This document shows, piece by piece, positions 22,101 through 45,249 of a DNA stretch of 64,000 nt. Source of the DNA: Trypanosoma brucei (Eukaryota); the NCBI GenBank assembly GCA_000002445.1, contig CP000069.1, positions 96,001 to 160,000 of the forward strand. Reading direction: 5' to 3'. The stretch's first letter is position 1. The number at the start of each line of letters is the position of its first letter. The translations under genes were made by a program, and so were the position numbers. The notes beneath the pieces were generated by a model that was given only the letters and a program-made list of their open reading frames with translations, was not told the DNA's origin and made no database searches.

Positions 22101-25100
22101 CCTTGAAGGAAACCCGCTCCCAAATGCTTTACGTATGCGTTGGTAACACGCCACGGCCAAGCACGTCATGAAAAGAATGAAATACACATTTCGATGTTTC
22201 GGCAAGTGGAACGCGCCTCGTGAACAAAACATTGCTGGAGGGAAATATCGTGGTCAGCTGGGGCGACGTTGCATCGACAGACAACCCCGCAGACGGCATT
22301 TCTTCGGGTGGGCCGGTTATGCCCAGAAGTTGCGAAAGGGTGTGGGGCAGGTGAAGCACACGCTTTCAGCAATTCCTTGCCGTAACTAAAATCCTTAACA
22401 TAACATATTGATTTACCATTTCTTTTTCAGCAAACGGGTCCACTGTTGTTCAATTTACGAGAGCAGTCTGCTTATCGTTTCCTCACCATTTTTTTTTTCG
22501 GCATGGGGTATGTAAGAAAATGAGTATTATTTTATCACCTTAACTCGGGCAGGCTGTTGGTGAGTTATAAATATCCGTGCAACCCCGCAAGTTGCTGCTA
22601 ACTTATCCCACTCACAAGGAAGCTCACCGCAACCGCTCTCGTCATTCCCCAATGAAAGAAAGAACAGGATCAATGGCACATTAGCACACACACACAAACA
22701 AACAAACACGTATATGTATTTCATGTGCGTTGCTGCTTCTTTCCTGCAAGGAAGTATTTAAGTGTGATGTGGGGCAAGAGTTTGGATTGTTTCTTATTTC
22801 AGTGCCGCAGTCGCTTGTTTGTTGTTTTGTTTCCGCCAGCGTTTACCTCGGCTAATGCGTCTCGGCTCTTAATAATTTCTGTTGTGCCCTTCGCCTTTTG
22901 TGTGGCTGCCTGGCTGGCTGTTCCTCTCATATACTTCTTAAAGGCGCTTTCCAGACAGGAAAAGTTTCCCCTTGGGCACGAATGTCGCATAGCACATGCA
23001 GTGGAAGAAGGGCGTAAGAACATGCGCGACGGAAGAACCGAATCTCATCCAGTTCCGCTTTCTCTTTTTTTTTCTCCTTTGTACCCTACTTTACTTGCAA
23101 ACGCCGCAATCATGTGGAAACACTTGGTCCCCTCTTATGACATCAATCATCTGCCTTTTGGGATGCATTGTCACTCCTCCCTTTTCCTTCATTCATCTTC
23201 GTGTTGTTGCGTCGTCACTCACTCATCCGGTTAGACACACCCTCCACATCCATTCGCACCATTTTCCTCATATTCCGAGTCTCATGCAGCAGAGAGCATG
23301 TATTTATCCATTTTATTTCTTTCCTTGGGTCCACCCAACAGGTTTCGTGTTTGGACCGTAACACAAATTTCATTTCCTGGTCGCAACCCAAACGCCGTTC
23401 GCGATCAGACGAGTTTCAATTCCGGGTAATGGGCCCCTTTCCACTTTGAAATGATTGAACCCTCTTTTTCGCACTTCCAATGGTTGCTGCCACCGTCACC
23501 ACACCTTCTCCACGTAGCGTTGGAAAGAAGTAAGGAATAATAAAAACGCATCTGAGCAACGCAGCAGCGATCAGCCAGTGGACCTCATCAGAGTTTGTGC
23601 CTCCAATCTCATTCCCAAACCAAAAAATTAATCGGGCCCGCATGCGGCACGAGGCGTCCGGCGACTACGGGGGTTTACAAAAGAAGGAAAGTGATGTAAC
23701 AAAAGGAGTTACATAAACATCGCGACCGCACGCACTCCGGCCATACAGGGCTGGAAAATTAATAAAACAACCCGCTCAGGGATAACAATTGTCCTTGAGG
23801 GAAAAAGGTTGGATGCCTGCAGCCGCACGAGTTCCGCTGCGATTCAGGTGAGTTTATCCTTTCCCCCTGAAGGTCGACAGTGTTTCCCTCCATTTGTTCC
23901 CTTCCCAAATAATATCTTCAGCACGTAGCAGTATTTTTGATATTCCAAAGCGGCTGCCAGTGCGTACACTCCTGCATGGGGGGAAAAGCCCCAAGTGAGG
24001 GCGGCAGATATGCGCAAGTAACAATCAGAGCCCATGCACGCAAACACACATGATGTAAAGGGAAACATGTAACAGGTATGCCAAATGCTCAGTTGAGGTT
24101 ACACACTGCAGCGACGTAGACGCTCCCTCCCGCCACAACTCGCCGTAGCTCCTCATCGCACAGTTAAAATGTCAAGGGTTCAGTCTTGAATTACCACAAA
24201 ATACGGATAAATGAGGTTTGCCCCTATAAAGGAGCGGCATTTCTGCACTCCCCTCGAGTGTCCAAACAGTGTTGTAAATAACAGAAGGATATTATAGGCT
24301 CAGCAATATTAACAGAGTGAACGTGTTACAAAACTCCCTCACAATAAAATAATTAGTATAAGCTGCAATAACTGCGACGGTGAGGGAACTTTGTTATACT
24401 GCGAGGCAACGCGGGTTTCAGTACATAACTAAGCTCATGCATCGACATCACACTCTGGAGGGAATGGAGGCAATCACATACCTTAAATCCTTACGGCAAC
24501 ACAAATGAGTGAAGGGAAAGAAAGCATGCAACTGGTGAAACAACATGTAACATCAGCAATGCAGAGGGTGATAAGGGTTGTATATCCGAAGAGAGAGATA
24601 CAACAGCCCACATAACACCCAACACATACAAACACACATGCAACATAACACTCATTATGAAAAAATATTTAAAGACACCGCTAGCATTAAGTGGATTCAA
24701 AAAGAAAAACGTGACGCAGACACACACGGAAACACAGTTTTGTACCCAAAAGGTTGCGGGATTGGGCGTGAGAGGTGGAATTTAAAAAAATAAAATAAAA
24801 TAGTCATGCACTCGCACGCTTAAGGACAGACGTGTTGAAAAAGAAATGTTTCACCTTATTTTTCTTAAAGCCTCAAATGGCAAGGACACAAATAAAAAAG
24901 AGAGCCCTTAGGGAAAGTACATAGCTAATCCCGTTTTGTGATTACTCACAGAACAAAAACGTTTTGGTTAAATTAGAAGAAATGTTGAGCCGTCCTGTCT
25001 TCCATAAGTGTCGGATTTGGAACAGTAAGAAACCAACCGGCGCTGACACGGCAAAACACATGCATGTGTTAATTCAGTGTCTTGAAAGACAACGCACGTG

Positions 25101-25350
25101 TAATCTAACAGAGGGCATGTTCCCTCTTAAGATTAGTATGTGCTTTAATGCAGAGGCAGCAGCCACCAAAAATAGAATGTAAAAAATGTAATAATAAATA
25201 GATGGCAAAAGATAAAAATAGATACAAAAGACAAACCCTACCGAGACTACGTTAAAATTCACTAACAACTACTACAATCGGTATGCTAATTAACTTTTCC
25301 GCCGAGTAAAACTAAGAGATTTGTACGCTTTATGACGTGCAACAGTACCA

Positions 25351-28300
25351 CTAATGTAACGACGGAAGCGGACACCCAAAGTGGCCTTCTCTGAAATGTG
25401 AACCAACGAATGGAACAATTATGATTGAGCCCTCTTCAGTACTCACAGAAGCTTCACTGCTTCCACTTTGAGCGCTACGGTCAGCGACACGCCCAACCTT
25501 AACTGCAATGCGACGCACCACTTCCTCACAGTAGGCGTCATCCCACTCGAATGCGGCTTCACGGGGAAGAGGCACACGCCAACGCTCACAAAGCGACGCC
25601 AGAAGATTCCCCCGTTGCGCTGCTTTAAAAGTTCGGAAAACAGACTGCAGTGAGTTCAATATCGATTGTGCTGATTCACTCAGCTCGGCACGTGAAGAAC
25701 TGTGGTCGCTTGTGGAGGTTGTCGTGCCATCCTCGTCTTCATCAAAGAATTCGCGATCCAGCCGTAATGCAGCAAAGTTGCGGCCAGGCACGGCATTCAA
25801 CTGGTACATTTCCACAGGATCATTCACGCCACGAAGTGCAACATCACCAAGTGCAGTGACATCAATTTGCTCACGCTCCTCAGCTGACAGTGACATGTAA
25901 ACCTCATGCGTCATCAGCACCTGACCACCATTTGCTACACTCTCTGTCCTTTCTGCCATGTTTGGAGTCCGCCCATAGTAGTCATATCCCTTCGTCACTT
26001 CATCGTGTCGGATGTCGCACAACCCGGTGTGGATTCCAACACGTACACGCAGGCCATTCCACAAACGACTGTACACTTTGAGGTCCAACCGCGCAGTTGG
26101 CGGTGTGTACTTCTCGTCCTCCTCCGCACGCTGCTGCTCCAACTGCTGGTAAGAATCATCAATCGCATTTGTTCCCCAGTCATGATGCAAGAAACACAGC
26201 TGTAGTTCCTGTGCGAGTTGGACGGCAGCGAAAGGACTCTTACTCGCTATCATGAACGAATCCCCAACAGTTTTGACTTCGTAGCACTTATACCTCCCAA
26301 TCAGTGAACGAATCAAATAGTGATGTGTCGCAACGGCATCAGGCATCAGCTCAGGGTGTGCAGCCCACAACGCAGTGCTGCTCTCAATGTCAGTAAATAT
26401 TAGTGTCACGGGGTCAGTTTGTTCCTTGGGTGCAAGATTGTTATCACGGGCATTCCGGTGTGTTGCTAATATAACAACCACAAGAACCGTAACAAGCGGC
26501 ACCAACATTACGACGAAGCCAACTGCAATAGCGGCAATTTGCTCAGTCATCTGTTGGATCCATCTCGGTTCATCATAGGTCACTCACAGTGTGGCAGACG
26601 ACAGCGCAGAGGACACAAAAGGGTTTAGAACATGTGACATCGACCATACAAAAATATGCATCCCACCACCGTTGACAACAGTGCTTCGCCTCAAGTCAAG
26701 TTTCGTTCGTACACTTGTCTCCAAACGACCCATACATTGCAGGACACTTCCCATTGCGTATGCGATGGCAGACCCAAGTAGTGACAATGGCTTCCACTTC
26801 GACTCATTCTGCACGATCTTGCGGAACTCACGTACTGTTTTGGACTCCGTGATCTTATCCCTCCGATGTGACAGATTCGTTGCGAATAGCAAGGGGTTAG
26901 AAAATGGCTTTTCATGGAAGGCACTCACGAGTTCGCCGTGGATTGGTGCATCATCGAAGAATAGGACAAAGACGTGCACATTACGGTGTTTGTTAGGGTG
27001 AAAGAGGATTATGGGGATATTATATGGGATAAGACCTACAACCAATACCTGACATGCAGTTGACAGCTTGTCTCTCAAATTAGGACCTTCACCACTCGCA
27101 ACAAAGAAGCTTAGTGATGTGTTAAAGTTGTCAAGTGTTTTTGCAACATATTCCTAATTCCTCTCGTATCACCACCACGACACACAATGACATGCATTCT
27201 TCCTGCACCATTTTGTATAATATGCTCAACTATCATAAATAACTGCTGCTCATTTGTTGGTAACAGGTGGATCACATTCCTTCTGGGGTTACTCGGTTGT
27301 GATGTGAGTATTATAGGATCGATGAATGCCATACCCTTCGTCCGCAGTAACGAATTATCCACGACACCAAACACAGCAGTTACAACTCGTTTCTCAACAT
27401 CATTATACAGAGTTGCAGAAGCTTCGTAAGATTTCGAGGATAGTCAGTGTAAAAAGAAACCATCAGAGTGACCCAGTTGACCTTTGCCAACAACATGAGG
27501 GACACCATCGTATACCATCTATGCAGCACGCAGTGCCTTTGGGTCATCGGTTATATTAAACATGACCCCACTCAATGGGCCATACAACTGTGGCAGGTCT
27601 CGATAACAGCGAGATGAACCAAGGGTTAATATAGCTTCCTTCATAGGGTGTAGATGGAGATCCTTTTCCACCTTCTTCATGCACATCACACTCCCACCTT
27701 GGTTACGTAAACACGATACACCCCGCTCTCCCGCCATATTACGGCACTCACCACCAAAGTCACCAACCACAATATTATCAATTGGATAACGACGTTTATT
27801 GTACAGTGATTTCATAAATACACCCCTGCTAGTTAGCTATTCGTGACAACTCAGTGCCTGTTTCAATACCTCTCCAGCAACCCATCTGTTCAATGTCAGC
27901 TCAGCTTCAGCGTCTTGCTCGGTGAAGTTATTTTCGTTAATATCCCACCTTGTGCGCTTATAGTTATTACCATTAACCTTTAACAACATAGTCATATCAT
28001 CCCTGAAACGCCTGACAGCTTTGTATGTGTCACCCTTCGTAATTAGGTCAGCCCCAGTTATTATTATTTTATCAGCCACAAACTCGTCTCTGCCCAATTT
28101 ATATGCCCACTTGTTCTTGACGGCGTGTTGGAGTGCAGAGGGTGTATGAATAAATATTCGCCTCTCGTCCTGTGGTCATATAATCATTTCATGGGGAATC
28201 TCTTCATATCAGGGATTGGAGAACCAAATACAATCACTCCCTGAGGTCCAGTATCGGCAACCTTATTCCACTCCGCACTGAAGCTACTGTTATCCGATTC

Positions 28301-28930
28301 CTTACCAATTTGACTCTTCAATGCAAAAAAATAACAACTAAACAACTTGCGATTCATCCGTGTTGCCAACTACGCAGCAAGCTTATACTCATCATCACCA
28401 TAAGAAACATCTTTCAAATACATGAAATCCAGTCGGTGTGACCGTAACTGAGTGATAGCATAACGGAAAAGAGCAAGCATCTCAACGGCGAGTGATGCTT
28501 CCAGGAGTCATAAATTGGGATTCCAACTGTGTACCCTACTGAATCCTGTGAAGGGCAAAAAATCAACTACACATTCTTTTCATTGAAATATTTGGTTAAG
28601 TTGAGAGTATTTTTGTCACCCACAGGTTCCAGTATAATGGCAAGCTCATCACCGTAATTGGTTGTACAGATGGCGTATCCAAAGTCATCCATAGACGAAA
28701 CATGTGCAACTGCCACACTGACACACGGAAGCGACTTTCCGTTGGTAATAGATGCGTTGAAGCCTGCAGTAATAGGATCAAATACCTTTGCTGAAATCTT
28801 GTCACTGTATAACATGTTGTATACCCTTACCCATATTAATCCATTTGCAAGCTATACTTCAGCCAGCAGCTGTAGTAATATAGAAAAACACCACGTAAGT
28901 GACTACGCCATCTCTAGCATGTAATTCACG
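25351..28930 (-). pseudogene. GRESAG4: Divergent receptor-type adenylate cyclase paralogue, disrupted (pseudogene copy A)
   Basis: The C-terminal 410-aa ORF (25351-26583) carries a TM helix (IAAIAVGFVVMLVPLVTVLVVVILA) plus a complete class III cyclase catalytic domain (VTLIFTDIESST, VKTVGDSFM, GIHTG, YDYYGRTPNMAERTES). It is separated by a TGA (SSATL*VTYDE) from the upstream in-frame piece 26584-27078. Further upstream pieces lie in other frames (27111-27374, 27519-27815, 27837-28097, 28184-28369, 28567-28815). They are collinear with successive segments of the full-length extracellular domain but share only about 30-45% aa identity with it. Confidence 0.8.
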
Positions 28931-30012
28931 CATGGAGGTAACCGTGATACTAGTAACTCAACGTAATTCAACTTTCAAACTACAGGACAAAAACGGCATA
29001 ATAACAAAGTATTGGTACAAGATTAATAGACTGCATGTGTATATGTAAGAGCGTGGGAAAGGGAACTACTGTAGTGGATAACATTACACAAACCATAACA
29101 GCGAGAAAGTAGTTCAACACACATTCCCCCATACACCCACATATCATTCATGTATCCGATACAAAAACATAAAACATCACTAGGCATAAGGGTAAATGTG
29201 TAGATAGAACATTACAGTATCATAAACTGGATTGCCATTAACAAAAACACAGCACACTAACAGTCACAGTTAACACTCAAACTGTAAATTTTAACTCACA
29301 ACATCACGGCAGACATTGCTCAGTTTCATATTCCTTGACTGTCTAGGAGTAAAAGAGAGTGTGCGAGAGAATATGAGGAAAGCTTCAGCAACCATAGAGA
29401 AATATAAAGGAAGTTATACACATGTATCAGATATTGCAAATAGTTACATGCAGCAAGGTGATTAAGAGATACCTTACAAGCCAGCATCTCCGAATGAAAA
29501 AAAAAAATTAGGGTAGACGCGAGGGATAAGCACAGGAGGTCACTTTTACTTCGCTATAGCCTCCGCTTCATGGGCATCACCTTATTATCAAACACATTTT
29601 TAAATGCAAGGACACAGCTCCTAACAACACATTAGAGGTGGAGCGCCTCACATGACAACGGACCACACGGACGGCAATATAAATTTAAATAAGATATTAT
29701 TTAGAAGAAGTTAAGCATTAATAGTGGCGTGGATGCACACATCCCTCACTACGTTAAACAGAAAATTAACGACTTTCATATATTGTAATCAAAAGATAGT
29801 ATGCCCATTTCAAAAATAAAATGCATCCCTGTGCATAAAAATATTTAAACACCCAACATATGAGGAAAATATTGCATGCACAAAAAGTTGGGGAGCAAAG
29901 TATTAGAAGAACACTATATGAAGTGAATCTAAAAAAAGTTTGCACATATTATATAAACATTATTATCCATTTACAACAACAAAACATACATACATCAATG
30001 TCATGAGAAATA

Positions 30013-33000
30013 TTAACAGGTACTACCAACACTTTCCAGGTCAATCAAATCAGTGGTGCAGCGTCGTCCCTCAACATAGGAAAAGTTTGAAGATGAAGCA
30101 ACCGTTGCAACAGTAGCTCCTCCAGGTGAAAATAGACTTCCACCCCTTTCCAATGATGTCACACTGCTGGAGGAGCTCCTCGTTCCAAAATCCATAACAC
30201 AACCCACCTTTGCAGCAATCCGACGGGTAACACAGCGACAACTGGCTTCATTCCAAGCATCCACCCCTGGGGGCTTCTTAACATGCCAACGCTCACAAAA
30301 TGTTGCAAGCATCTTCTGTCGCTGGATAACTGGAAATGCGCCAATGAGGGCATCAATGCAACCAGCAACCTGTTGAGCGGTGGCAGTTAAACCACACTCA
30401 TTAAAGCTCGACTCACTAGCGCTACTACCTGTTCCAACATCTTCTTCATCCTCGATTTCACGTTCCAGCCGTAATGCAGCAAAGTTGCGGCCAGGCACGG
30501 CATTCAACTGGTACATTTCCACAGGATCGGGCACACCACGTAGCGGCACATCACCAAGTGCAGTGACATCAATTTGCTCACGCTCCTCAGCTGACAGTGA
30601 CATGTAAACCTCATGCGTCATCAGCACCTGACCACCATTTGCTACACTCTCTGTCCTTGCTGCCATGTTTGGAGTCCGCCCATAGTAGTCATATCCCTTC
30701 GTCACTTCATCGTGTCGGATGTCGCACAACCCGGTGTGGATTCCAACACGTACACGCAGGCCATTCCACAAACGACTGTACACTTTAAGGTCCAACCGCG
30801 CAGTTGGCGGTGTGTACTTCTCGTCCTCCTCCGCACGCTGCTGCTCAAACTGCTGGTAAGAATCATCAACTGCATTTGTTCCCCAGTCATGTTGCAAGAA
30901 ACACAGCTGTAATTCCTGTGCGAGTTGGACGGCAGCGAAAGGACTCTTACTCGCTATCATGAACGAATCCCCAACAGTTTTGACTTCGTAGCACTTATAC
31001 CTCCCAATCAGTGAACGAATCAAATAGTGATGTGCCGCAACGGCATCGGGCATCAGCTCAGGGTGTGCAGCCCACAACGCAGTGCTGCTCTCAATGTCAG
31101 TAAATATTAGTGTCACAGGGTCCGTTGGCTCCTTGGGTGCAAGATTGTTATCACGAGCATTCCGCAGGGTGATGCGTAGGAGCACACCAAGGGCAATAAA
31201 AGGTATCAAGCCGGCTATACACCCGATACCTATGCCGGCTATCTGTGACCCTGTGAGACGACTCCCTCCTGAAATGATATACCCCATAGACGGTGTCATG
31301 CCGCGTTGCAATATGGGCACACTTGAATTCAGCACACGCGCCATCGACCATACAGAAATGTTTGTGGCTCCAAAGTTTGAGGCACACTCATTTGCCGAAA
31401 CACTCGTACCAGAAACACATTCCACATCACTGAAGGGTCCAAATCGCATGTCATCCACTTTGATGTTGGACTCCGTGTAAATGCGGTCTGCCAGCAGCTC
31501 TGCATTCACTTTCTTCATATTCGGGAGAATCACTTGAAGCAGCCGAGTGGTAACAAAACCTAAGAACGTTAGTGGATCCCAATGCGATTCATTCACAATG
31601 CGATGGAAACTCGCAACCACATCTGATTTCGTGTCCTTCTCCGCCCAGTGTGGGAAACTCGTCGCGAATAGGAGCCGCTCTGAGCTAGCAATAGACTCTT
31701 TACTCGCATTAAACGCAGCTACAAACTCATCGTAGTACATTGCAAGGTCATTGAATGGAATGAATACACGTGCCCTGCGGTGGGTCTGAAGGTGCCGCGC
31801 AACTGCAGCAACGTCAGTGAGAGTGAGTCCAATAGTAAACACATCTCTATTACCCGAGAGATATGACGATATCGGGTCACCATCACCAAGTGTCTTGCTG
31901 GAATCAAGCGGCACACCAAACGTGTCCAATGACTTGTACAGCAGGCTACTGATCTCCACTACTTGCTCACTACGTATGAGTGCATTTACTCCTCTGGAAG
32001 AAGTGTTGGAGAGATACACAGCAAGCACATAAAGTTGCTGCGCAAGGACAGGCAGTAAGTGTATTACGTTTCTCCTAAACAATTTCATGCGGGGTCGAAG
32101 TGTCATAGGACTGATGAACACTAAATCTTTTCGGTCCAGAAGCCCTCCAGGCATGATACCAAATACTGCAGATACATCCCTGTTATCCTGTACTTGCTCA
32201 AGGGATTGCGTCACATTCTCTGAAGATACTGTTAGGGGATGGAAAAATATTCTATTGTCAATATTCTCCGCTTCCTTGCCATGAACCTCGGCACCAAGGA
32301 ACCACTTCCTGCTCGCACGTAATGCAATTTTATTATCTGCGAGAAGCAAAAAGAGGCCACTCAATGGCGCACCCACATGTACATTGGCACTCGAGCACTC
32401 TGATACACCCCACGTTAGATGTCCTTCCCACAAAGGCGCTGGTCGGAAGCCATCCATTATACTCTTCATATATACCATACTGCCACCTTGATTGCATTCA
32501 CACATGGCACCCTGTAATGCAACGGCCTCATTGCACTCACCACCAAAGTCACCAACCACAAGGTCATCAATCACGTAGCGACGCTGCTTGTACAGAGATT
32601 CCCTGAATGATGTACGGTTCGTCAGCTGTGGGGCGTTATTCAGAGCTTCGAAGAGAACTTCTCCCGCAAGCCACCCATACACCATCATCTCACCTGCGTT
32701 GTCGTCCTCAAGGTAGTGATCGGGTTTCTTAAAAAAGTTCCAGTCATTGTTTGTCCTGAGGTAGTTGTCCATGTCATGCTGGAAGCGCTGAATCAGTGAG
32801 AACCGAGTATCGTTAGCGAGCGGCACTGTTCCAGTTGTGATTAGCTGTCCAGGAGTGAATGTACGATTAGCTAACGCCAATGCCTCACGCCACATCTTGA
32901 TCAAAAAATTTTGCTGTAGTGAAGTAGAAAGAAGATACGCATTGGCAGTGCGGTTGTCCTGTGCTACCTTCTTGATGAACCACTTTGCTGTATTACCCAG

Positions 33001-33819
33001 GGATGAAAACAGCAATATAGCCTGTGGGCGCGTAGCAACAAATTGTCTCCACCTGGTGTTCAAATCATCCTCAGAGATATTTTGATTCTCACTCTCCTTC
33101 ACAACGAACATTCCACACAGCTCGCGACCCATCATTTCCAATATCTGCACAGTAAACTCATACGGTCCCATACTGGCGGTGCTGCTCTTCACGTGCATCA
33201 TACCTATTCGTGGGACACGGAGGTAAACAACAGCATAACGAATGAGGGCGAGGAGTTCAGCATTGGGTTCGACACTTATGAAATAAAGGTGAGGGTTCCA
33301 ACCACGGACCTCACTGGAGTACGCAACGGGAGCGAGGGCAACAAGATCATGTTCCTTCAGTTTATCACTGACCCACGAGACGTGATTAGTACCCAGCGGC
33401 CCGAATACAACTAATAACTTGTCTTCACTTTGATTCATTCCCTGCTGAAATATGTCCTCGATTGTCGCATTGGGTGATGGGGGACGGATGACAGATATTG
33501 TCGCATTAGAGCCCGTCTTCCAGCTGTGGGCACTCAGTGATGCGTCAAAACCGGCATTAAGATCGTTAACTTCATCGTCAGAATATTCCGGATTATACAT
33601 CATGGATAGCACTTTTACCGTCACATTACTCGCTTCCGCGCACACAGGTGGCATCCACATGAGTAGCAAAGGCAACAAGTGTAGCAGTGACATAGCAGTA
33701 ATGACAGGTGAGTGCTTGTACTTGCTGTAACGCCTTGCAGGGCTCCTTGCGGTAAGGTTCCGCCTGCAGTTTCCATGAGGGTACACACATCCTCTTCCAC
33801 CACCTTCCTGCCAGCACAT
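30013..33819 (-). CDS. GRESAG4: Receptor-type adenylate cyclase, full length (copy 1, 1268 aa from first ATG)
   Basis: Single 3.8 kb ORF. First ATG is at 33819 (MCWQEGGG...), and a further in-frame ATG lies directly before the hydrophobic leader (MSLLHLLPLLLMWMPPVCAEA). The protein has a large extracellular domain of about 820 aa with many N-glycosylation sequons. One TM follows (IAGIGIGCIAGLIPFIALGVLL), then the class III cyclase domain (PTDPVTLIFTDIESSTALW, YEVKTVGDSFMIAS, RVGIHTGLCDI, GYDYYGRTPNMAARTESVANGGQVL), and a C-terminal tail of about 150 aa. This architecture and length are those of trypanosome ESAG4/GRESAG4 cyclases. Confidence 0.9.
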   Translation of the reverse strand: MCWQEGGGRGCVYPHGNCRRNLTARSPARRYSKYKHSPVITAMSLLHLLPLLLMWMPPVCAEASNVTVKVLSMMYNPEYSDDEVNDLNAGFDASLSAHSWKTGSNATISVIRPPSPNATIEDIFQQGMNQSEDKLLVVFGPLGTNHVSWVSDKLKEHDLVALAPVAYSSEVRGWNPHLYFISVEPNAELLALIRYAVVYLRVPRIGMMHVKSSTASMGPYEFTVQILEMMGRELCGMFVVKESENQNISEDDLNTRWRQFVATRPQAILLFSSLGNTAKWFIKKVAQDNRTANAYLLSTSLQQNFLIKMWREALALANRTFTPGQLITTGTVPLANDTRFSLIQRFQHDMDNYLRTNNDWNFFKKPDHYLEDDNAGEMMVYGWLAGEVLFEALNNAPQLTNRTSFRESLYKQRRYVIDDLVVGDFGGECNEAVALQGAMCECNQGGSMVYMKSIMDGFRPAPLWEGHLTWGVSECSSANVHVGAPLSGLFLLLADNKIALRASRKWFLGAEVHGKEAENIDNRIFFHPLTVSSENVTQSLEQVQDNRDVSAVFGIMPGGLLDRKDLVFISPMTLRPRMKLFRRNVIHLLPVLAQQLYVLAVYLSNTSSRGVNALIRSEQVVEISSLLYKSLDTFGVPLDSSKTLGDGDPISSYLSGNRDVFTIGLTLTDVAAVARHLQTHRRARVFIPFNDLAMYYDEFVAAFNASKESIASSERLLFATSFPHWAEKDTKSDVVASFHRIVNESHWDPLTFLGFVTTRLLQVILPNMKKVNAELLADRIYTESNIKVDDMRFGPFSDVECVSGTSVSANECASNFGATNISVWSMARVLNSSVPILQRGMTPSMGYIISGGSRLTGSQIAGIGIGCIAGLIPFIALGVLLRITLRNARDNNLAPKEPTDPVTLIFTDIESSTALWAAHPELMPDAVAAHHYLIRSLIGRYKCYEVKTVGDSFMIASKSPFAAVQLAQELQLCFLQHDWGTNAVDDSYQQFEQQRAEEDEKYTPPTARLDLKVYSRLWNGLRVRVGIHTGLCDIRHDEVTKGYDYYGRTPNMAARTESVANGGQVLMTHEVYMSLSAEEREQIDVTALGDVPLRGVPDPVEMYQLNAVPGRNFAALRLEREIEDEEDVGTGSSASESSFNECGLTATAQQVAGCIDALIGAFPVIQRQKMLATFCERWHVKKPPGVDAWNEASCRCVTRRIAAKVGCVMDFGTRSSSSSVTSLERGGSLFSPGGATVATVASSSNFSYVEGRRCTTDLIDLESVGSTC

Positions 33820-33861
33820 ATTTTCGGGAATGTGTGACACTTTTCGTGTGTGAAATCTTAT

Positions 33862-33910
33862 GTCCTAAGGAAGAATATCAAAAGAGGGAAAATAGAAATC
33901 AGTAAGATTA
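33862..33910 (-). promoter_or_regulatory. Polypyrimidine tract plus AG (minus strand), candidate SL acceptor for copy 1
   Basis: The reverse complement reads cttactgatttctattttccctcttttgatattcttccttAGgacataag, about 45 nt upstream of the ATG at 33819. The same motif precedes copies 2 and 3. Confidence 0.5.
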
Positions 33911-36735
33911 CACTTCCAGACAGTTGGATGCTATAACAAGTTCCCGACAAAACCAAAACAATGCTTAAAAAGCAATGAAGGCACGTCAAGGTAGCGAGAG
34001 GCGACTCGTTTATGATGTCACTGTAAATTGCGAGCAAATGATAGAAAGGGACAACCGACACGCTGGTAGGTAATGGTGTCACACAAACAAACACGTATAT
34101 GTATTTCATGTGCGTTGCTGCTTCTTTCCCGCAAGGAAGTATTTAAGTGTGATGTGGGGCAAGAGTTTGGATTGTTTCTTATTTCGGTGCCGCAGTCACT
34201 TGTTTGTTGTTTTGTTTCCGCCAGCGTCTACCTCGGCTAATGCGTCTCGGCTCTTAATAATTTCTGTTGTGCCCTTCGCCTTTTGTGTGGCTGCCTGGCT
34301 GGCTGTTCCTCTCATATACTTCTTAAAGGCGCTTTCCAGACAGGAAAAGTTTCCCCTTGGGCACGAATGTCGCGTAGCACATGCAGTGGAAGAAGGGCGT
34401 AAGAACATGCGCGACGGAAGAACCGAATCTCATCCAGTTCCGCTTTCTCTTTTTTTTCTCCTTTGTACCCTACTTTACTTGCAAACGCCGCAATCATGTG
34501 GAAACACTTGGTCCCCTCTTATGACATCAATCATCTGCCTTTTGGGATGCATTGTCACTCCTCCCTTTTCCTTCATTCATCTTCGTGTTGTTGCGTCGTC
34601 ACTCACTCATCCGGTTAGACACACCCTCCACATCCATTCGCACCATTTTCCTCATATTCCGAGTCTCATGCAGCAGAGAGCATGTATTTATCCATTTTAT
34701 TTCTTTCCTTGGGTCCACCCAACAAGTTTCGTATTTGGACCGTAACACAAATTTCATTTCCTGGTCGCAACCCAAACGCCGTTCGCGATCAGACGAGTTT
34801 CAATTCCGGGTAATGGGCCCCTTTCCACTTTGAAATGATTGAACCCTCTTTTTCGCACTTCCAATGGTTGCTGCCACCGTCACCACACCTTCTCCACGTA
34901 GCGTTGGAAAGAAGTAAGAAATAATAAAAACGCATCTGAGCAACGCAGCAGCGATCAGCCAGTGGACCTCATCAGAGTTTGTGCCTCCAATCTCATTCCC
35001 AAACCAAAAAATTAATCGGGCCCGCATGCGGCACGAGGCGTCCGGCGACTACGGGGGTTTACAAAAGAAGGAAAGTGATGTAACAAAAGGAGTTACATAA
35101 ACATCGCGACCGCACGCACTCCGGCCATACAGGGCTGGAAAATTAATAAAACAACCCGCTCAGGGATAACAATTGCCCTTGAGGGAAAAAGGTTGGATGC
35201 CTGCAGCCGCACGAGTTCCGCTGCGATTCAGGTGAGTTTATCCTTTCCCCCTGAGGGTCGACAGTGTTTCCCTCCATTTGTTCCCTTCCCAAATAATATC
35301 TTCAGCACGTAGCAGTATTTTTGATATTCCAAAGCGGCTGCCAGTGCGTACACTCCTGCATGGGGGGAAAAGCCCCAAGTGAGGGCGGCAGATATGCGCA
35401 AGTAACAATCAGAGCCCATGCACGCAAACACACATGATGTAAAGGGAAGCATGTAACAGGTATGCCAAATGCTCAGTTGAGGTTACACACTGCAGCGACG
35501 TAGCCGCTCCCTCCCGCCACAACTCGCCGTAGCTCCTCATCGCACAGTTAAAACGTCAAGGGTTCAGTCTAGAATTACCACAAAATACGGATAAATGAGG
35601 TTTGTCCCTATAAAGGAGCGGCATTTCTGCACTCCCCTCGAGTGTCCAAACAGTGTTGTAAATAACGGAAGGATATTATAGGCTCAGCAATATTAACAGA
35701 GTGAACGTGTTACAAAACTCCCTCACAATACAATAATTAGTATAAGCTGCAATAACTGCGACGGTGAGGGAACTTTGTTATACTGCGAGGCAACGCGGGT
35801 TTCAGTACATAACTAAGCTCATGCATCGACATCACACTCTGGAGGGAATGGAGGCAATCACATACCTTAAATCCTTACGGCAACACAAATGAGTGAAGGG
35901 AAAGAAAGCATGCAACTGGTGAAACAACATGTAACATCAGCAATGCAGAGGGTGATAAGGGTTGTATATCCGAAGAGAGAGATACAACAGCCCACATAAC
36001 ACCCAACACATACAAACACACATGCAACATAACACTCATTATGAAAAAATATTTAAAGACACCGCTAGCATTAAGTGGATTCAAAAAGAAAAACGTGACG
36101 CAGACACACACGGAAACACAGTTTTGTACCCAAAAGGTTGCGGGATTGGGCGTGAGAGGTGGAATTAAAAAAAAATAAAATAAAATAGTCATGCACTCGC
36201 ACGCTTAAGGACAGACGTGTTGAAAAAGAAATGTTTCACCTTATTTTTCTTAAAGCCTCAAATGGCAAGGACACAAATAAAAAAGAGAGCCCTTAGGGAA
36301 AGTACATAGCTAATCCCGTTTTGTGATTACTCACAGAACAAAAACGTTTTGGTTAAATTAGAAGAAATGTTGAGCCGTCCTGTCTTCCATAAGTGTCGGA
36401 TTTGGAACAGTAAGAAACCAACCGGCGCTGACACGGCAAAACACATGCATGTGTTAATTCAGTGTCTTGAAAGACAACGCATGTGTAATCTAACAGAGGG
36501 CATGTTCCCTCTTAAGATTAGTATGTGCTTTAATGCAGAGGCAGCAGCCACCAAAAATAGAATGTAAAAAATGTAATAATAAATAGATGGCAAAAGATAA
36601 AAATAGATACAAAAGACAAACCCTACCGAGACTACGTTAAAATTCACTAACAACTACTACAATCGGTATGCTAATTAACTTTTCCGCCGAGTAAAACTAA
36701 GAGATTTGTACGCTTTATGACGTGCAACACTACCA

Positions 36736-39700
36736 CTAATGTAACGACGGAAGCGGACACCCAAAGTGGCCTTCTCTGAAATGTGAACCAACGAATGGAA
36801 CAATTATGATTGAGCCCTCTTCAGTACTCACAGAAGCTTCACTGCTCCCACTTTGAGCGCTACGGTTAGCGACACGCCCAACCTTAACTGCAATGCGACG
36901 CACCACTTCCTCACAGTAGGCGTCATCCCACTCGAATGCAGCTTCACGGGGAAGAGGCACACGCCAATGCTCACAAAGCGACGCCAGAAGATTCCCCCGT
37001 TGCGCTGCTTTAAAAGTTCGGAAAACAGACTGCAGTGAGTTCAATATCGATTGTGCTGATTCACTCAGCTCAGCACGTGAAGAACTGTGGTCGCTTGTGG
37101 AGGTTGTCGTGCCATCCTCGTCTTCAAAGAATTCGCGATCCAGCCGTAATGCAGCAAAGTTGCGGCCAGGCACGGCATTCAACTGGTACATTTCCACAGG
37201 ATCATTCACGCCGCGAAGTGCAACATCACCAAGTGCAGTGACATCAATTTGCTCACGCTCCTCAGCTGACAGTGACATGTAAACCTCATGCGTCATCAGC
37301 ACCTGACCACCATTTGCTACACTCTCTGTCCTTTCTGCCATGTTTGGAGTCCGCCCATAGTAGTCATATCCCTTCGTCACTTCATCGTGTCGGATGTCGC
37401 ACAACCCGGTGTGGATTCCAACACGTACACGCAGGCCATTCCACAAACGACTGTACACTTTAAGGTCCAACCGCGCAGTTGGCGGTGTGTACTTCTCGTC
37501 CTCCTCCGCACGCTGCTGCTCCAACTGCTGGTAAGAATCATCAACTGCATTTGTTCCCCAGTCATGATGCAAGAAACACAGCTGTAATTCCTGTGCGAGT
37601 TGGACGGCAGCGAAAGGACTCTTACTCGCTATCATGAACGAATCCCCAACAGTTTTGACTTCGTAGCACTTATACCTCGCAATCAGTGAACGAATCAAAT
37701 AGTGATGTGCCGCAACGGCATCGGGCATCAGTTCAGGGTGTGCAGCCCACAACGCAGTGCTGCTCTCAATGTCAGTAAATATTAGTGTCACGGGGTCAGT
37801 TTGTTCCTTGGGTGCAAGATTGTTATCACGGGCATTCCGGTGTGTTGCTAATATAACAACCACAAGAACCGTAACAAGCGGCACCAACATTACGACGAAG
37901 CCAACTGCAATAGCGGCAATTTGCTCAGTCATCTGTTGGATCCATCTCGGTTCATCATAGGTCACTGACGGTGTTGCAGACGACAGCGCAGAGGACACAA
38001 AAGGGTTTAGAACATGTGACATCGACCATACAAAAATATGCATCGCACCACAGTTGACAACAGTGCTTCGCCTCAAGTCAAGTTTCGTTCGTACACTTGT
38101 CTCCAAACGACCCATACATTGCAGGACACTTCCCATTGCGTATGCGATGGCAGACCCAAGTAGTGACAACGGTTTCCACTTCGACTCATTCTGCACGATC
38201 TTGCGGAACTCACGTACTGTTTTGGACTCCGTGATCTTATCCCTCCGATGTGACAGATTCGTTGCGAATAGCAAGGGGTTAGAAAATGGCTTTTCATGGA
38301 AGGCATTCACGAGTTCGCCGTGGATTGGTGCATCATCGAAGAATAGGACAAAGACGTGCGCATTACGGTGTTTGTTAGGGTGAAAGAGGATTATGGGGAT
38401 ATTATATGGGATAAGACCTACAACCAATACCTGACATGCAGTTGACAGCTTGTCTCTCAAATTAGGACCTTCACCACTCGCAACAAAGAAGCTTAGTGAT
38501 GTGTTAAAGTTGTCAAGTGTTTTTGCAACATATTCCTAATTCCTCTCGTATCACCACCACGACACACAATGACATGCATTCTTCCTGCACCATTTTGTAT
38601 AATATGCTCAACTATCATAAATAACTGCTGCTCATTTGTTGGTAACAGGTGGATCACATTCCTTCTGGGGTTACTCGGTTGTGATGTGAGTATTATAGGA
38701 TCGATGAATGCCATACCCTTCGTCCGCAGTAACGAATTATCCACGACACCAAGCACAGCAGTTACAACTCGTTTCTCAACATCATTATACAGAGTTGCAC
38801 AAGTTTCGTAAGATTTCGAGGATAGTCAGTGTAAAAAGAAACCATCAGAGTGACCCAGTTGACCTTTGCCAACAACATGAGGGACACCATCGTATACCAT
38901 CTATGCAGCACGCAGTGCCTTTGGGTCATCGGTTATATTAAACATGACCCCACTCAATGGGCCATACAACTGTGGCAGGTCTCGATAACAGCGAGATGAA
39001 CCAAGGGTTAATATAGCTTCCTTCATAGGGTGTAGATGGAGATCCTTTTCCACCTTCTTCATGCACATCACACTCCCACCTTGGTTACGTAAACACGATA
39101 CACCCCGCTCTCCCGCCATATTACGGCACTCACCACCAAAGTCACCAACCACAATATTATCAATTGGATAACGACGTTTATTGTACAGTGATTTCATAAA
39201 TACACCCCTGCTAGTTAGCTATTCGTGACAACTCAGTGCCTGTTTCAATACCTCTTCAGCAACCCATCTGTTCAATGTCAGCTCAGCTTCAGCGTCTTGC
39301 TCGGTGAAGTTATTTTCGTTAATATCCCACCTTGTGCGCTTATAGTTATTACCATTAACCTTTAACAACATAGTCATATCATCCCTGAAACGCCTGACAG
39401 CTTTGTATGTGTCACCCTTCGTAATTAGGTCAGCCCCAGTTATTATTATTTTATCAGCCACAAACTCGTCTCTACCCAATTTATATGCCCACTTGTTCTT
39501 GATGGCGTGTTGGAGTGCAGAGGGTGTATGAATAAATATTCGCCTCTTGTCCTGTGGTCATATAATCATTTCATGGGGAATCTCTTCATATCAGGGATTG
39601 GAGAACCAAATACAATCATTCCCTGAGGTCCAGTATCGGCAACCTTATTCCACTCCGCACTGAAGCTACTGTTATCCGATTCCTTACCAATTTGACTCTT

Positions 39701-40310
39701 CAATGCAAAAAAATAACAACTAAACAACTTGCGATTCATCCGTGTTGCCAACTACGCAGCAAGCTTATACTCATCATCACCATAAGAAACATCTTTCAAA
39801 TACATGAAATCCAGTCGGTGTGACCGTAACTGAGTGATAGCATAACGGAAAAGAGCAAGCATCTCAACGGCGAGTGATGCTTCCAGGAGTCATAAATTGG
39901 GATTCCAACTGTGTACCCTACTGAATCCTGTGAAGGGTAAGAAATCAACTACACATTCTTTTCATTGAAATATTTGGTTAAGTTGAGAGTATTTTTGTCA
40001 CCCACAGGTTCCAGTATAATGGCAAGCTCATCACCGTAATTGGTTGTACAGATGGCGTATCCAAAGTCATCCATAGACGGAACATGTGCAACTGCCACAG
40101 ACACACGGAAGCGACTTCCCGTTGGTAATAGATGCGTTGAAACCTGCAATAATAGGATCACATACCTTTGCTGAAATCTTGTCACTGTATAACATGTTGT
40201 ATACCCTTACCCATATTAATCCATTTGCAAGCTATACTTCAGCCAGCAGCTGTAGTAACATAGAAAAACACCACGTAAGTGACTACGCCATCTCTAGCAT
40301 GTAATTCACG
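36736..40310 (-). pseudogene. GRESAG4: Divergent receptor-type adenylate cyclase paralogue, disrupted in the extracellular part (pseudogene copy C); retains a 574-codon open frame over the TM and catalytic domain
   Basis: 36736-38460 is open for 574 codons (TTG at 38460; first ATG about 38136 giving about 466 aa). It encodes the distal extracellular region, the TM and a complete catalytic domain with no internal stop. Upstream collinear pieces are in other frames or interrupted (38493-38756, 38901-39197, 39219-39479, 39566-39751, 39949-40185). The same disruption pattern is seen in copies A and E. Confidence 0.8.
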
Positions 40311-41384
40311 CATGGAGGTAACCGTGATACTAGTAACTCAACGTAATTCAACTTTCAAACTACAGGACAAAAACGGCATAATAACAAAGTATTGGTACAA
40401 GATTAATAGACTGCATATGTATGTGTATATGTAAAAGCGTGGGAAAGGGAACTACTGTAGTGGATAACATTACACAAACCATAACAGCGAGAAAGTAGTT
40501 CAACACACATTCCCCCATACACCCACATATCATTCATGTATCCGATACAAAAACATAAAACATCACTAGGCATAAGGGTAAATGTGTAGATAGAACATTA
40601 CAGTATCATAAACTGGATTGCCATTAACAAAAACACAGCACACTAACAGTCACAGTTAACACTCAAACTGTAAATTTTAACTCACAACATCACGGCAGAC
40701 ATTGCTCAGTTTCATATTCCTTGACTGTCTAGGAGTAAAAGAGAGTGTGCGAGAGAATATGAGGAAAGTTTCAGCGACCATAGAGAAATATAAAGGAAGT
40801 TATACACATGTATCAGATATTGCAAATAGTTAGATGCAGCAAGGTGATTAAGAGATACCTTACAAGCCAGCATCTCCGAATGAAAAAAAAAGATTAGGGT
40901 AGACGCGAGGGATAAGCACAGGAGGTCACTTTTACTTCGCTATAGCCTCCGCTTCATGGGCATCACCTTATTATCAAACATATTTTTAAATGCAAGGACA
41001 CAGCTCCTAACAACACATTAGAGGTGGAGCGCCTCACATGACTACCGCCCACACGGACGGCAATATAAATTCAAATAAGATATTATTTAGAAGAAGTTGA
41101 GCATCAATGGCGGCGTGGGTGAACACATCCCTCACTACGTTAAACAGAAAGTTAACGACCCCCGAATATTGTAATCAAAAAATGGTGTGCCCATTTCAGA
41201 AGTAAAATGCATCCCGTACACAAGGATATTTAAAGCATCCAGCATATGAAGAAAATATTGCATGCGCAAAAAGTTGGGACGCAAAATGATAAAAATCGTT
41301 TATACAAGCCTGCTATGAAAACACAAAATGAATTATGTAAACATTATTATCCATTTACAACAACAAAACATACATACATCAATG

Positions 41385-45206: not shown

Positions 45207-45249
45207 ATTTTCGGGAATGTGTGACACTTTTCGTGTGTGAAATCTTATG

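What the first reader, a model, noticed from the sequence alone, without database searches (positions are those of the whole stretch)
30590..30625. Patchwork polymorphism among catalytic domains consistent with short-tract gene conversion in all directions
At the motif after GGQVL, copy 1 and pseudogenes A and C read MTHEVYMSLSAEERE (catgtaaacctcatgcgtcatc on the minus-strand template). Copies 2 and 3 and pseudogene E read (M/I)TGSTYLSLSAEERE (caggtatgttgagcctgtcatc). A few codons away, all pseudogenes read VALRGVNDP and all full-length genes read VPLRGVPDP. Copy 3 additionally shows mosaicism across the extracellular domain. It is copy-2-like at MMHNPAYTEGEIN and in the C-terminal SASQYPS tail, but copy-1-like at LGNTAKWFIKKV. 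Alleles are shuffled in blocks of tens to hundreds of bp. This is the pattern expected for a multigene family evolving by conversion. It also means the three 'functional' copies encode distinct extracellular (putative ligand-binding) surfaces.
Basis: seen in the sequence. Interest (0 to 1): 0.5.

Follow-up and report, generated by a model that had tools for sequence, protein, structure and literature searches.

The report
Trypanosome adenylate cyclase genes swapping patches
Three neighbouring Trypanosoma brucei receptor adenylate cyclase genes and the three broken cyclase genes beside them have copied short DNA patches into one another in both directions; the pattern is real and clear, but it is a process already documented for this gene family.

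Summary
The window is T. brucei TREU927 chromosome 6. It holds three intact GRESAG4 receptor adenylate cyclases (XP_845156, XP_845157, XP_845158), each next to a frameshifted cyclase pseudogene, within an 11.4-kb unit present three times.

The quoted motifs lie where stated. Lineage-specific differences are strongly clustered (146 runs against 256 expected, z = -12). In the catalytic block, 270 of 595 site pairs fail the four-gamete test (at least 9 recombination events in 701 bp).

The pseudogenes belong to a different cyclase lineage, about 30% identical outside the cell. Only a 233-codon catalytic block is homogenised. Silent-site difference there is 0.08-0.11, against about 0.75 in both flanks.

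A T. equiperdum orthologue sets the direction. All 13 derived bases of copy 1 match pseudogene C. Eleven contiguous derived bases of pseudogene E match copy 3.

A second haplotype or strain carries one intact gene joined at the catalytic block where the window has four cyclase sequences.

Short-tract conversion in both directions is well supported. Mosaic conversion in GRESAG4 arrays was already published (Jackson 2007; Jackson et al. 2010), so this is a new instance of a known process.

The parts
30013..33819 (-). Copy 1: intact GRESAG4 receptor adenylate cyclase, identical to XP_845156 (1268 aa)
   Evidence: Translation; Pfam PF25495, PF25493 and PF00211; exact identity to P0034
41385..45206 (-). 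Copy 2: intact GRESAG4 cyclase, identical to XP_845157 (1273 aa)
54979..58797 (+). Copy 3: intact GRESAG4 cyclase, identical to XP_845158 (1272 aa), in the inverted third unit
25351..28933 (-). Pseudogene A: frameshifted cyclase of another lineage. Its extracellular part is about 64% identical to P0012 and about 30% to copy 1. It has one in-frame stop in the otherwise open 3' half.
   Evidence: tblastn frames; six-frame reading; identities
36736..40267 (-). Pseudogene C: the same lineage. The extracellular part is riddled with stops, and the last 574 codons are open.
59890..63383 (+). Pseudogene E: the same lineage in the inverted unit, with private indels (+7 bp, -2 bp) and a premature stop in the tail
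30431..31164 (-). Catalytic-domain homology block of copy 1. It is 92-96% identical to the pseudogene blocks, with abrupt borders.
   Evidence: blastn; alignment; silent-site divergence
41815..42548 (-). Catalytic homology block of copy 2
57634..58367 (+). Catalytic homology block of copy 3
25724..26457 (-). Catalytic homology block of pseudogene A
37113..37839 (-). Catalytic homology block of pseudogene C, the best donor candidate for the derived bases of copy 1
62340..63073 (+). Catalytic homology block of pseudogene E, recipient of a tract from copy 3
30601..30622 (-). The flagged patch in copy 1 (MTHEVYM). It carries 11 substitutions in 14 bp relative to copies 2 and 3 and is identical to pseudogenes A and C.
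30523..30549 (-). VPLRGVPDP patch of copy 1. It has 8 fixed differences in 19 bp from the VALRGVNDP of the window's pseudogenes, an island that has resisted homogenisation.
22695..34123 (-). Repeat unit 1 (pseudogene A plus copy 1)
   Evidence: Self-blastn, 97.5% identical to unit 2
34080..45510 (-). Repeat unit 2 (pseudogene C plus copy 2), in tandem with unit 1
54619..64000 (+). Repeat unit 3 (copy 3 plus pseudogene E), inverted and running off the window. A fourth gene, XP_845159, lies beyond the window.

Best explanation
The window holds a segmentally duplicated cluster of Trypanosoma brucei receptor-type adenylate cyclase (GRESAG4) genes. Each 11.4-kb unit carries one intact gene and one dead gene of a different cyclase lineage.

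The sequences evolve by repeated, short, non-reciprocal copying between paralogues, that is, ectopic gene conversion by homologous recombination. Pairing is seeded in stretches of high identity, above all the ~700-bp catalytic-domain block. Heteroduplex repair then leaves short, often discontinuous tracts of about 10 to a few hundred bp.

Transfers run in several directions: between genes, from pseudogene to gene, from gene to pseudogene, and with family members outside the window. Two results follow. The catalytic block is homogenised among neighbours. The intact genes each become a unique mosaic drawn from a shared pool of segment alleles, most densely in the N-terminal extracellular lobe.

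The same catalytic block also serves as a crossover site for larger rearrangements.

Shown here: the mosaic pattern, the silent-site homogenisation with sharp borders, the donors and polarity of specific tracts, and the timing after the unit duplication and after the split of the two lineages compared. Inferred from general trypanosome biology: the recombination and mismatch-repair machinery, and any selective benefit.
For: - **Identity of the genes.** The three ORFs equal XP_845156, XP_845157 and XP_845158 of T. b. brucei TREU927 chromosome 6. They carry PBP-like and class III cyclase domains and match the 1FX2 catalytic domain at E = 1e-137.
- **Locus layout.** An 11.4-kb unit occurs twice in tandem plus once inverted. 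Each unit holds a frameshifted cyclase.
- **Clustering and incongruence.** Runs test z = -12. 270/595 four-gamete failures, Rm >= 9 and PHI-type p = 0.0008 in 701 bp. Rm >= 29 and p < 0.0005 for five genes. All three quartet topologies are interleaved.
- **DNA-level homogenisation.** Between gene and pseudogene, the proportion of silent sites that differ is 0.75-0.79 in both flanks and 0.08-0.11 within the 233-codon block.
- **Conversion after duplication.** Pseudogene A versus E has dS 0.12 in the block against 0.02 in the flanks.
- **Uneven silent divergence among the genes.** dS is 0.07-0.15 in the N-terminal extracellular region and 0.01-0.016 in the membrane-proximal domain.
- **Shared polymorphism.** At 52/89 amino-acid differences among copies 1-3, both states occur in other TREU927 chromosome 6 paralogues. 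This rises to 74/89 when other genomes are added.
- **Polarised tracts.** 13/13 derived bases of copy 1 match pseudogene C. Eleven contiguous derived bases of pseudogene E match copy 3. Ten of 12 derived bases of the T. equiperdum copy-3 orthologue match pseudogene states, mostly its own neighbour.
- **Donor and recipient now share the allele**, so the transfer was non-reciprocal.
- **Orthologue divergence.** It is 0.9-1.9% at baseline, 5.3% in the N-terminal extracellular region of copy 3, and 7.5% in the pseudogene E block.
Against: - Nucleotide sequence for most family members outside the window was not available. Donors of the extracellular patches are therefore identified only at protein level.
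- With four genes alone, the PHI-type test is only marginal (p = 0.07), although 68% of site pairs are incompatible.
- Conversion cannot be told apart from closely spaced double crossovers for most tracts.
- The reference assembly of near-identical repeats could contain some consensus chimerism. Independent assemblies (L001, L002) show the same alleles, but not the same combinations.
- No experiment here shows the machinery or the rate.
Confidence: 0.88

Rival explanations
1. The mosaic comes from reciprocal recombination (unequal crossing-over and double crossovers between repeat units and between homologous chromosomes) sorting old segment alleles, and not from non-reciprocal conversion.
For: The locus clearly undergoes unit-scale rearrangement: tandem and inverted 11.4-kb units, and a haplotype with a single gene joined at the catalytic block where the window has four cyclase sequences. 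The genes and the pseudogenes carry reciprocally swapped C-terminal tails relative to their extracellular relatives.
Against: Tracts as short as 13-14 bp, flanked on both sides by recipient-type sites, would each need two crossovers within about 100 bp. For the copy 1 patch, both candidate donors still carry the donated allele, so the exchange was not reciprocal. Crossing-over probably contributes to the large rearrangements but does not explain the fine patches.
Confidence: 0.07
2. The patches are independent clustered mutations (mutational hotspots or multinucleotide events) kept by diversifying selection on a surface receptor, with no exchange between copies.
For: Positive selection on the extracellular domain of T. 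brucei cyclases has been reported (PMC2386149). Amino-acid differences are densest in the N-terminal lobe, and dN/dS there is fairly high at 0.55-0.78.
Against: - The same multi-base patch is base-for-base identical in different copies.
- Most polymorphisms are shared with other paralogues.
- Synonymous divergence itself varies 5-15-fold along the gene.
- The label-permutation runs test is insensitive to rate heterogeneity and still gives z = -12.
- Pseudogenes, which are not under protein selection, show the same patches.
Confidence: 0.02
3. The patchwork is an artefact of assembling 93-97% identical repeats, giving a consensus chimerism in the TREU927 reference.
For: The units are 11.4 kb long and 97% identical, and the catalytic blocks are 92-96% identical. 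The reference is an older clone-based Sanger assembly (my own recollection, not checked here).
Against: - Two independent assemblies carry the same segment alleles in further combinations: T. b. equiperdum CM010677.1 and a T. brucei contaminant scaffold in the S. mansoni assembly.
- All three genes keep open 1268-1273-codon frames, and the only indel among them is in frame.
- The contrast in silent divergence between block and flanks cannot be an assembly effect.
Confidence: 0.03

Closest known systems
Mosaic and concerted evolution of T. brucei tandem gene arrays, including GRESAG4 adenylate cyclase arrays (Jackson 2007, PMC1855330; Jackson et al. 2010, PMC2854126, Table 2)
   Same: Same organism, same gene family and same process. 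Those papers report short conversion tracts detected by GENECONV, SISCAN and compatibility tests, PHI p < 0.001, and multiple GARD breakpoints in GRESAG4 arrays on chromosomes 4, 6 (Tb927.6.760), 7 and 8, with subspecies-specific recombinant copies.
   Different: The only chromosome 6 cyclase array in Jackson's supplementary list lies at 316-339 kb and has 3732-bp genes. That corresponds to XP_845199-203, not this locus, which has 3807-3822-bp genes interleaved with pseudogenes and an inverted unit. Two features are not described in the passages I read: exchange with a pseudogene of another cyclase lineage, and confinement of homogenisation to the catalytic block.
Segmental gene conversion that builds mosaic VSG genes from a pseudogene archive in T. 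brucei (background in PMC2854126 and PMC7015903)
   Same: Same organism. Pseudogenes act as sequence donors to intact genes of a surface-protein family, with short tracts and mosaics that differ between strains.
   Different: VSG conversion is coupled to a single telomeric expression site and to antibody selection during infection. Here the genes are chromosome-internal, nothing indicates a programmed or expression-linked process, and the pseudogene-derived patches seen lie in the cytosolic catalytic domain.
Gene plus pseudogene tandem modules with microconversion and chimeric genes, such as the human CYP21A2/CYP21A1P RCCX module (my own knowledge, not checked here)
   Same: A live gene and a dead paralogue sit in a tandemly duplicated module. 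Short patches move from pseudogene to gene, and unequal recombination in the shared homology produces fused chimeric genes and copy-number haplotypes. The short haplotype in L001 is comparable.
   Different: The organism and the consequences differ: disease alleles in humans, and possibly receptor diversification here. In this locus the two partners are diverged lineages sharing only one ~700-bp block.
Gene conversion shaping receptor adenylate cyclases in Leishmania donovani (Rogozin et al. 2020, PMC7400496, as cited in PMC7719234)
   Same: The homologous gene family in a related parasite, with the same proposed process.
   Different: A different genus with a much smaller family. I did not read the details.

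Membership tests
Trypanosomatid receptor-type adenylate cyclase (ESAG4/GRESAG4 family) | Large extracellular region with periplasmic-binding-protein-like domains | tested here: met
   PF25495 (E = 1e-52) and PF25493 (E = 4.5e-131) in copy 1
Trypanosomatid receptor-type adenylate cyclase (ESAG4/GRESAG4 family) | Single transmembrane helix between the extracellular region and the cyclase domain | tested here: met
   One hydrophobic stretch, IAGIGIGCIAGLIPFIALGVLL, lies directly before RNARDNN in all three genes. This was read from the translations; no predictor was run.
Trypanosomatid receptor-type adenylate cyclase (ESAG4/GRESAG4 family) | Class III cyclase homology domain closely related to the solved GRESAG4.1 and GRESAG4.3 domains | tested here: met
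   PF00211 E = 1e-44; 1FX2 E = 1e-137 and 1FX4 E = 1e-127
Trypanosomatid receptor-type adenylate cyclase (ESAG4/GRESAG4 family) | Identity to annotated family members | tested here: met
Trypanosomatid receptor-type adenylate cyclase (ESAG4/GRESAG4 family) | Adenylate cyclase activity and flagellar membrane location | not testable with these tools
   Requires biochemistry and imaging
Interlocus (ectopic) gene conversion in a multigene family | Incompatible phylogenetic signals at sites along one alignment | tested here: met
   270/595 incompatible pairs and Rm >= 9; Rm >= 12 and >= 29; three quartet topologies interleaved
Interlocus (ectopic) gene conversion in a multigene family | Copy-specific differences clustered into tracts, not scattered | tested here: met
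   146 runs against 256 expected, z = -12; longest runs of 15-17 against about 5
Interlocus (ectopic) gene conversion in a multigene family | Homogenisation of silent sites with abrupt borders | tested here: met
   Proportion of silent sites differing is 0.08-0.11 inside the block and 0.75-0.79 in both flanks; borders are visible in the alignment
Interlocus (ectopic) gene conversion in a multigene family | Identifiable donor carrying the identical tract, with polarity set by an outgroup or orthologue | tested here: met
   Copy 1 from pseudogene C (13/13 derived bases); pseudogene E from copy 3 (11 contiguous bases). Donors of the extracellular patches were seen only at protein level.
Interlocus (ectopic) gene conversion in a multigene family | Non-reciprocity: the donor keeps its allele | tested here: met
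   Pseudogenes A and C still carry the HEVYM patch that copy 1 acquired. Copy 3 still carries the ITGSTYL patch that pseudogene E acquired.
Interlocus (ectopic) gene conversion in a multigene family | Dependence on homologous recombination and mismatch repair proteins | not testable with these tools
   Requires genetics
Pseudogene status of A, C and E | Frameshifts and in-frame stops relative to intact relatives | tested here: met
   Three reading frames are needed to follow the homology. There are at least 9 stops in the first ~250 codons and 3 in the next ~350, plus private indels of 2, 2 and 7 bp.
VSG-type programmed segmental conversion | Pseudogene donors contribute to intact genes | tested here: met
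VSG-type programmed segmental conversion | Conversion targeted to an active telomeric expression site and selected by host antibody | not tested
   Nothing in the window indicates a telomeric expression site. The locus lies in the chromosome core next to a nucleoside transporter gene. I do not file this locus under VSG-type conversion.

The most novel reading that the evidence does not exclude
The dead cyclase genes beside each live gene may not be mere debris. Together with the ~700-bp catalytic block they could form a working diversification module. In this reading the block acts as a recombination hinge in three ways:
- It lets pseudogenes donate patches to live genes.
- It lets live genes refresh the pseudogene 3' halves, so those halves stay open.
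- It lets whole extracellular domains be re-paired with alternative C-terminal tails.

The last point fits two observations: the reciprocally swapped tails, and the haplotype in which a c-type extracellular domain is joined to the pseudogene-type catalytic domain and tail as one intact gene. Since C-terminal regions are reported to influence sub-flagellar targeting (PMC6027212), such swaps could re-route receptors. That would be a VSG-like combinatorial strategy applied to a signalling receptor family.
Probability: 0.2. Interest if true: 0.6.

Novelty: new member of a known kind. Interest (0 to 1): 0.3.

Why it matters
T. brucei carries about 80 receptor adenylate cyclases with unknown ligands. 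They matter for host immune modulation and for behaviour in the tsetse fly (PMC6027212, PMC7719234).

This locus shows how the repertoire changes. Neighbouring paralogues, including dead ones of another lineage, exchange short tracts. Positional orthologues in two Trypanozoon genomes already differ by 5-7% in the affected segments, against about 1-2% in the rest of the repeat unit.

Three practical consequences follow:
- Trees and dN/dS scans of this family will mislead unless recombination is modelled.
- 'Orthologues' between strains need not be equivalent.
- The high conservation of the catalytic domain between these neighbouring genes is largely homogenisation at the DNA level, beyond protein constraint alone.

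The general principle is already published for this family, so the value lies in a clean, polarised example and in the gene-pseudogene aspect.

Tried and rejected
- **Paralogue DNA look-ups.** The exact-protein look-up failed for the TREU927 proteins P0001 and P0002. It succeeded only for P0003 and the T. equiperdum orthologue. Donors of the extracellular patches could therefore be traced only at protein level.
- **Locus tags.** I looked for locus tags of this array in Durante et al. 2020. None is in the text and no supplements are held.
- **Catalytic-domain structure paper.** Bieger and Essen 2001 (PMC133460) is not held. I could not place the HEV/GST patch on 1FX2.
- **Structure prediction.** I considered predicting the extracellular structure to map the patches. 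I did not run it because the tools return no coordinates, so surface mapping is not possible. I give domain-level densities instead.
- **Inversion or microindel origin of the 14-bp patch.** Rejected. The two versions are not reverse complements of each other, and both recur in other family members.
- **L001 as a trivial assembly chimera of window-like reads.** Rejected. Its transmembrane segment matches neither partner, and its flanks differ by about 0.5-1%.
- **One failed call.** A Pfam scan was rejected because one coordinate range contained stop codons. It was repeated with corrected ranges.
Full report
**What the window is.** The three long ORFs (30013-33840 minus strand, 41385-45227 minus strand, 54958-58797 plus strand) encode receptor-type adenylate cyclases. 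Each has two periplasmic-binding-protein-like extracellular domains and a class III cyclase domain. The catalytic domain matches the solved T. brucei GRESAG4.1 domain 1FX2 at E = 1e-137. Read from the first ATG, the three products are identical to XP_845156, XP_845157 and XP_845158 of Trypanosoma brucei brucei TREU927 chromosome 6. A fourth close copy, XP_845159, lies just beyond the window.

**Layout of the locus.** Self-comparison shows an 11.4-kb unit twice in tandem (22695-34123 and 34080-45510, 97.5% identical) and once inverted (54619 to the window end). Each unit holds one intact gene and a second cyclase-like sequence: pseudogene A (about 25351-28933), pseudogene C (about 36736-40267) and pseudogene E (about 59890-63383). 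Copies 2 and 3 point away from each other across 45.2-55.0 kb.

**Check of the observation.**
- The MTHEVYM 22-mer occurs exactly at 30601-30622, 25894-25915 and 37276-37297.
- The MTGSTYL 22-mer occurs at 41985-42006, and with one mismatch (ITGSTYL) at 58176-58197 and 62882-62903.
- The two versions differ at 11 of 14 consecutive bases.
- The VPLRGVPDP versus VALRGVNDP patch (8 differences in 19 bp) separates the genes from the pseudogenes in the window. Pseudogene E reads ...NDH.
- The statements about copy 3 are all correct: like copy 2 at MMHNPAYTEGEIN and in the SASQYPS tail, like copy 1 at LGNTAKWFIKKV.

**Is it more than chance?**
- In a three-way alignment of the units, 383 variable sites were labelled by which unit is the odd one out. 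They form 146 runs, where label permutation gives 256 +/- 9 (z = -12). The longest runs are 15-17 sites, against about 5 expected. Because only labels are permuted, uneven mutation rate along the sequence cannot explain this.
- Many runs are very dense: 11 sites in 14 bp, 12 in 29 bp, 15 in 49 bp.
- In the 701-bp catalytic block of the six sequences there are 35 informative sites. Of 595 site pairs, 270 fail the four-gamete test. The minimum number of recombination events is 9, and neighbouring sites are more compatible than distant ones (p = 0.0008).
- Four c-type genes give Rm >= 12, with 68% of pairs incompatible. Five give Rm >= 29 with p < 0.0005.
- With XP_845166 as outgroup, interleaved amino-acid sites support all three groupings of copies 1-3 (15, 8 and 6).

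**What the 'pseudogenes' really are.** They are not decayed copies of the adjacent gene.
- Their extracellular parts are about 30% identical to copies 1-3 and about 64% identical to a different TREU927 cyclase, P0012.
- They need three reading frames and carry many stops: at least 9 in the first ~250 codons and 3 in the next ~350. Each copy also has private 2-bp or 7-bp indels.
- Only a block of 233 codons is 92-96% identical to the neighbouring gene. It runs from just after the membrane helix (RNARDNN) to FAALRL and has abrupt borders.
- Between gene and pseudogene, the proportion of silent sites that differ is 0.75-0.79 on both sides of the block and 0.08-0.11 inside it. Protein-level constraint cannot do that. 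The DNA itself has been homogenised.
- Inside the block, pseudogenes A and E differ more at silent sites (dS 0.12) than in their flanks (0.02). The block has therefore been overwritten separately since the units duplicated.

**Variation among the intact genes.**
- Silent divergence among copies 1-3 is 0.07-0.15 in the N-terminal extracellular region and only 0.01-0.016 in the membrane-proximal binding-protein-like domain. Different segments have different histories.
- Amino-acid differences are densest at residues 62-186 (27 per 100). They are sparse in the PF25493 domain (2.7 per 100) and the catalytic domain (3.8 per 100).
- Of 89 two-state amino-acid differences among copies 1-3, both states recur in other TREU927 chromosome 6 paralogues at 52. 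This rises to 74 when the T. equiperdum, T. b. gambiense and contaminant sequences are added.
- Each gene is a distinct combination of a limited set of segment alleles (table).

**Direction of transfer.** Nucleotide sequence around the T. b. equiperdum protein P0035 (locus L002) is collinear with window 44971-64000. It supplies positional orthologues of copy 3 and pseudogene E. Polarised with these:
- **Copy 1** has 13 derived bases in the catalytic block relative to copy 2 = copy 3 = the T. equiperdum orthologue. All 13 equal pseudogene C, and 12 equal pseudogene A. They fall in at least three separate positions with recipient-type sites between them, so the tracts are short and discontinuous. 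This is pseudogene to gene.
- **Pseudogene E of TREU927** has 23 derived bases relative to A = C = the T. equiperdum E orthologue. Eleven contiguous ones equal copy 3, including the ATA codon private to the copy 3 lineage. Most of the others (9) match no gene copy and look like ordinary point changes. This is gene to pseudogene.
- **The T. equiperdum copy-3 orthologue** has 12 derived bases, and 10 match pseudogene states, mostly its own neighbouring pseudogene.

In every case the donor still carries the allele, so the events were non-reciprocal.

Positional orthologues differ by 0.9-1.9% at baseline. They differ by 5.3% in the N-terminal extracellular region of copy 3 and by 7.5% in the pseudogene E block. 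In some patches each orthologue matches a different paralogue. Exchange has therefore continued since these two genomes separated.

**Larger rearrangements at the same block.**
- Copies 1-4 combine a chromosome 6-type extracellular region (85% identical to XP_845166) with a tail 72% identical to that of P0012.
- The pseudogenes combine a P0012-type extracellular region with a tail 74% identical to those of XP_845166 and XP_845201.
- The neighbours thus carry reciprocally swapped tails, with the catalytic block as the junction.
- The scaffold carrying P0003 (L001) is labelled Schistosoma mansoni but is evidently T. brucei contamination. Its 5' side is collinear with the unique flank and extracellular region of copy 2. 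From the catalytic block onward it is collinear with pseudogene A's block, its tail (100% identical protein) and its 3' flank (98.7%).
- That haplotype or strain has one intact gene where the window has copy 2, pseudogene C, copy 1 and pseudogene A, a difference of 16.1 kb.
- Its membrane segment matches neither window partner, so it is not a simple assembly chimera.
- Whether it is a deletion product or the ancestral state cannot be decided here.

**Mechanism.** The best explanation is repeated ectopic gene conversion by homologous recombination between nearby paralogues. It would be seeded in high-identity stretches, with patchy heteroduplex repair giving tracts of about 10 to a few hundred bp, plus occasional crossovers in the catalytic block. 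The pattern, the donors, the polarity and the timing are shown. The enzymes involved and any adaptive value are inferred.

Three rivals fit the data poorly; the reasons are given under each in the Rival explanations section:
- purely reciprocal exchange;
- clustered independent mutation under selection;
- assembly chimerism.

**Comparison with what is known.**
- Jackson (2007, PMC1855330) catalogued conversion tracts in T. brucei tandem arrays, including GRESAG4 arrays.
- Jackson et al. (2010, PMC2854126) reported PHI p < 0.001 and multiple breakpoints for GRESAG4 arrays on chromosomes 4, 6, 7 and 8, and called the products subspecies-specific sequence mosaics.
- Emes and Yang (2008, PMC2386149) reported positive selection in the extracellular, leucine-binding-protein-like region.
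- Durante et al. (2020, PMC7719234) suggested that cyclase pseudogenes may feed functional diversity.
- Jackson's array list for chromosome 6 includes only the array at 316-339 kb with 3732-bp genes, which is not this locus.

This is therefore a new instance of a known process. The added details are cross-lineage homogenisation confined to the catalytic block, polarised pseudogene-to-gene and gene-to-pseudogene tracts, and a structural variant joined at that block.

**Verdict.** Interest 0.3.

Noticed in passing
window 25351-27141, 36736-38523, 61656-63383: The pseudogenes decay unevenly. There are at least 9 stops in the first ~250 codons and 3 in the next ~350. From KTLDNFNTSL to the natural stop, pseudogene C has none in 574 codons, and A and E have one each. 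The open 3' half extends beyond the converted catalytic block on both sides, so conversion from the neighbouring gene does not fully explain it.
   Followed up: partly
window 30013-30430 versus 25351-25723, with proteins P0012, P0040 and P0005: The C-terminal tails look reciprocally swapped. The intact genes pair a chromosome 6-type extracellular region with a P0012-type tail (72% identical). The pseudogenes pair a P0012-type extracellular region with a chromosome 6-type tail (74% identical to XP_845166 and XP_845201).
   Followed up: partly
L001 1-11938 versus window 47514-41815 and 26457-19472: This scaffold carries a single intact gene (P0003). It is joined at the catalytic block, with the 5' flank of copy 2 on one side and the tail and 3' flank of pseudogene A on the other. 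The 16.1 kb between these points in the window is absent. This is either a deletion product or the ancestral state.
   Followed up: partly
L001 11938-16064 versus window 19472 and 1-3471: Beyond window position 19472, L001 continues into window 1-3471 (99.8% identical) in the opposite orientation. This implies either an inversion of about 20 kb, including the nucleoside transporter gene, relative to the window, or a scaffold error.
   Followed up: no
proteins P0003, P0037 and P0044 (XP_018644553.1, XP_018644084.1, XP_018644083.1): RefSeq proteins labelled Schistosoma mansoni are T. brucei adenylate cyclase sequences. Their unique flanks are about 99% or more identical to this window. They represent contamination in that assembly.
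   Followed up: partly
L002 about 17500-17550 (T. b. equiperdum orthologue of pseudogene E): This orthologue has a 51-bp deletion inside the catalytic block, a GRESAG4.1-like patch in the QQFEQQRAEEDEKY region, and reads VPLRGEPDP. Its block is only 86-87% identical to copies 1-3, whereas the TREU927 pseudogene blocks are 92-96% identical to them.
   Followed up: partly
window 29632-30130: The last codons and the first ~400 bp of the 3' untranslated region hold 85 variable sites in 500 bp among the three units, again in copy-specific runs. The three genes therefore also carry mosaic 3' UTRs, which could affect stage-specific expression.
   Followed up: no
window 15877-17301 (+): An intact 474-codon ORF matches the nucleoside transporter family (PF01733, E = 6e-32). 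It lies upstream of the cyclase units and is followed by a 14-bp tandem repeat at 17351-17428.
   Followed up: no
window 33690-33700, 45077-45087, 55098-55108: The methionine that directly precedes the signal-peptide-like LLHLLPLLLMWMPPVCA in copy 1 is valine in copies 2 and 3. Those genes must start at the conserved upstream ATG (MCWQEGGG or MSWQEGGG), which gives a ~45-residue leader shared across the family.
   Followed up: no
window 8843-10359 (+): Three consecutive ORFs of about 133 codons lie in a locally G+C-rich stretch (0.51). Two were scanned and have no Pfam match. This may be another degenerate gene.
   Followed up: no
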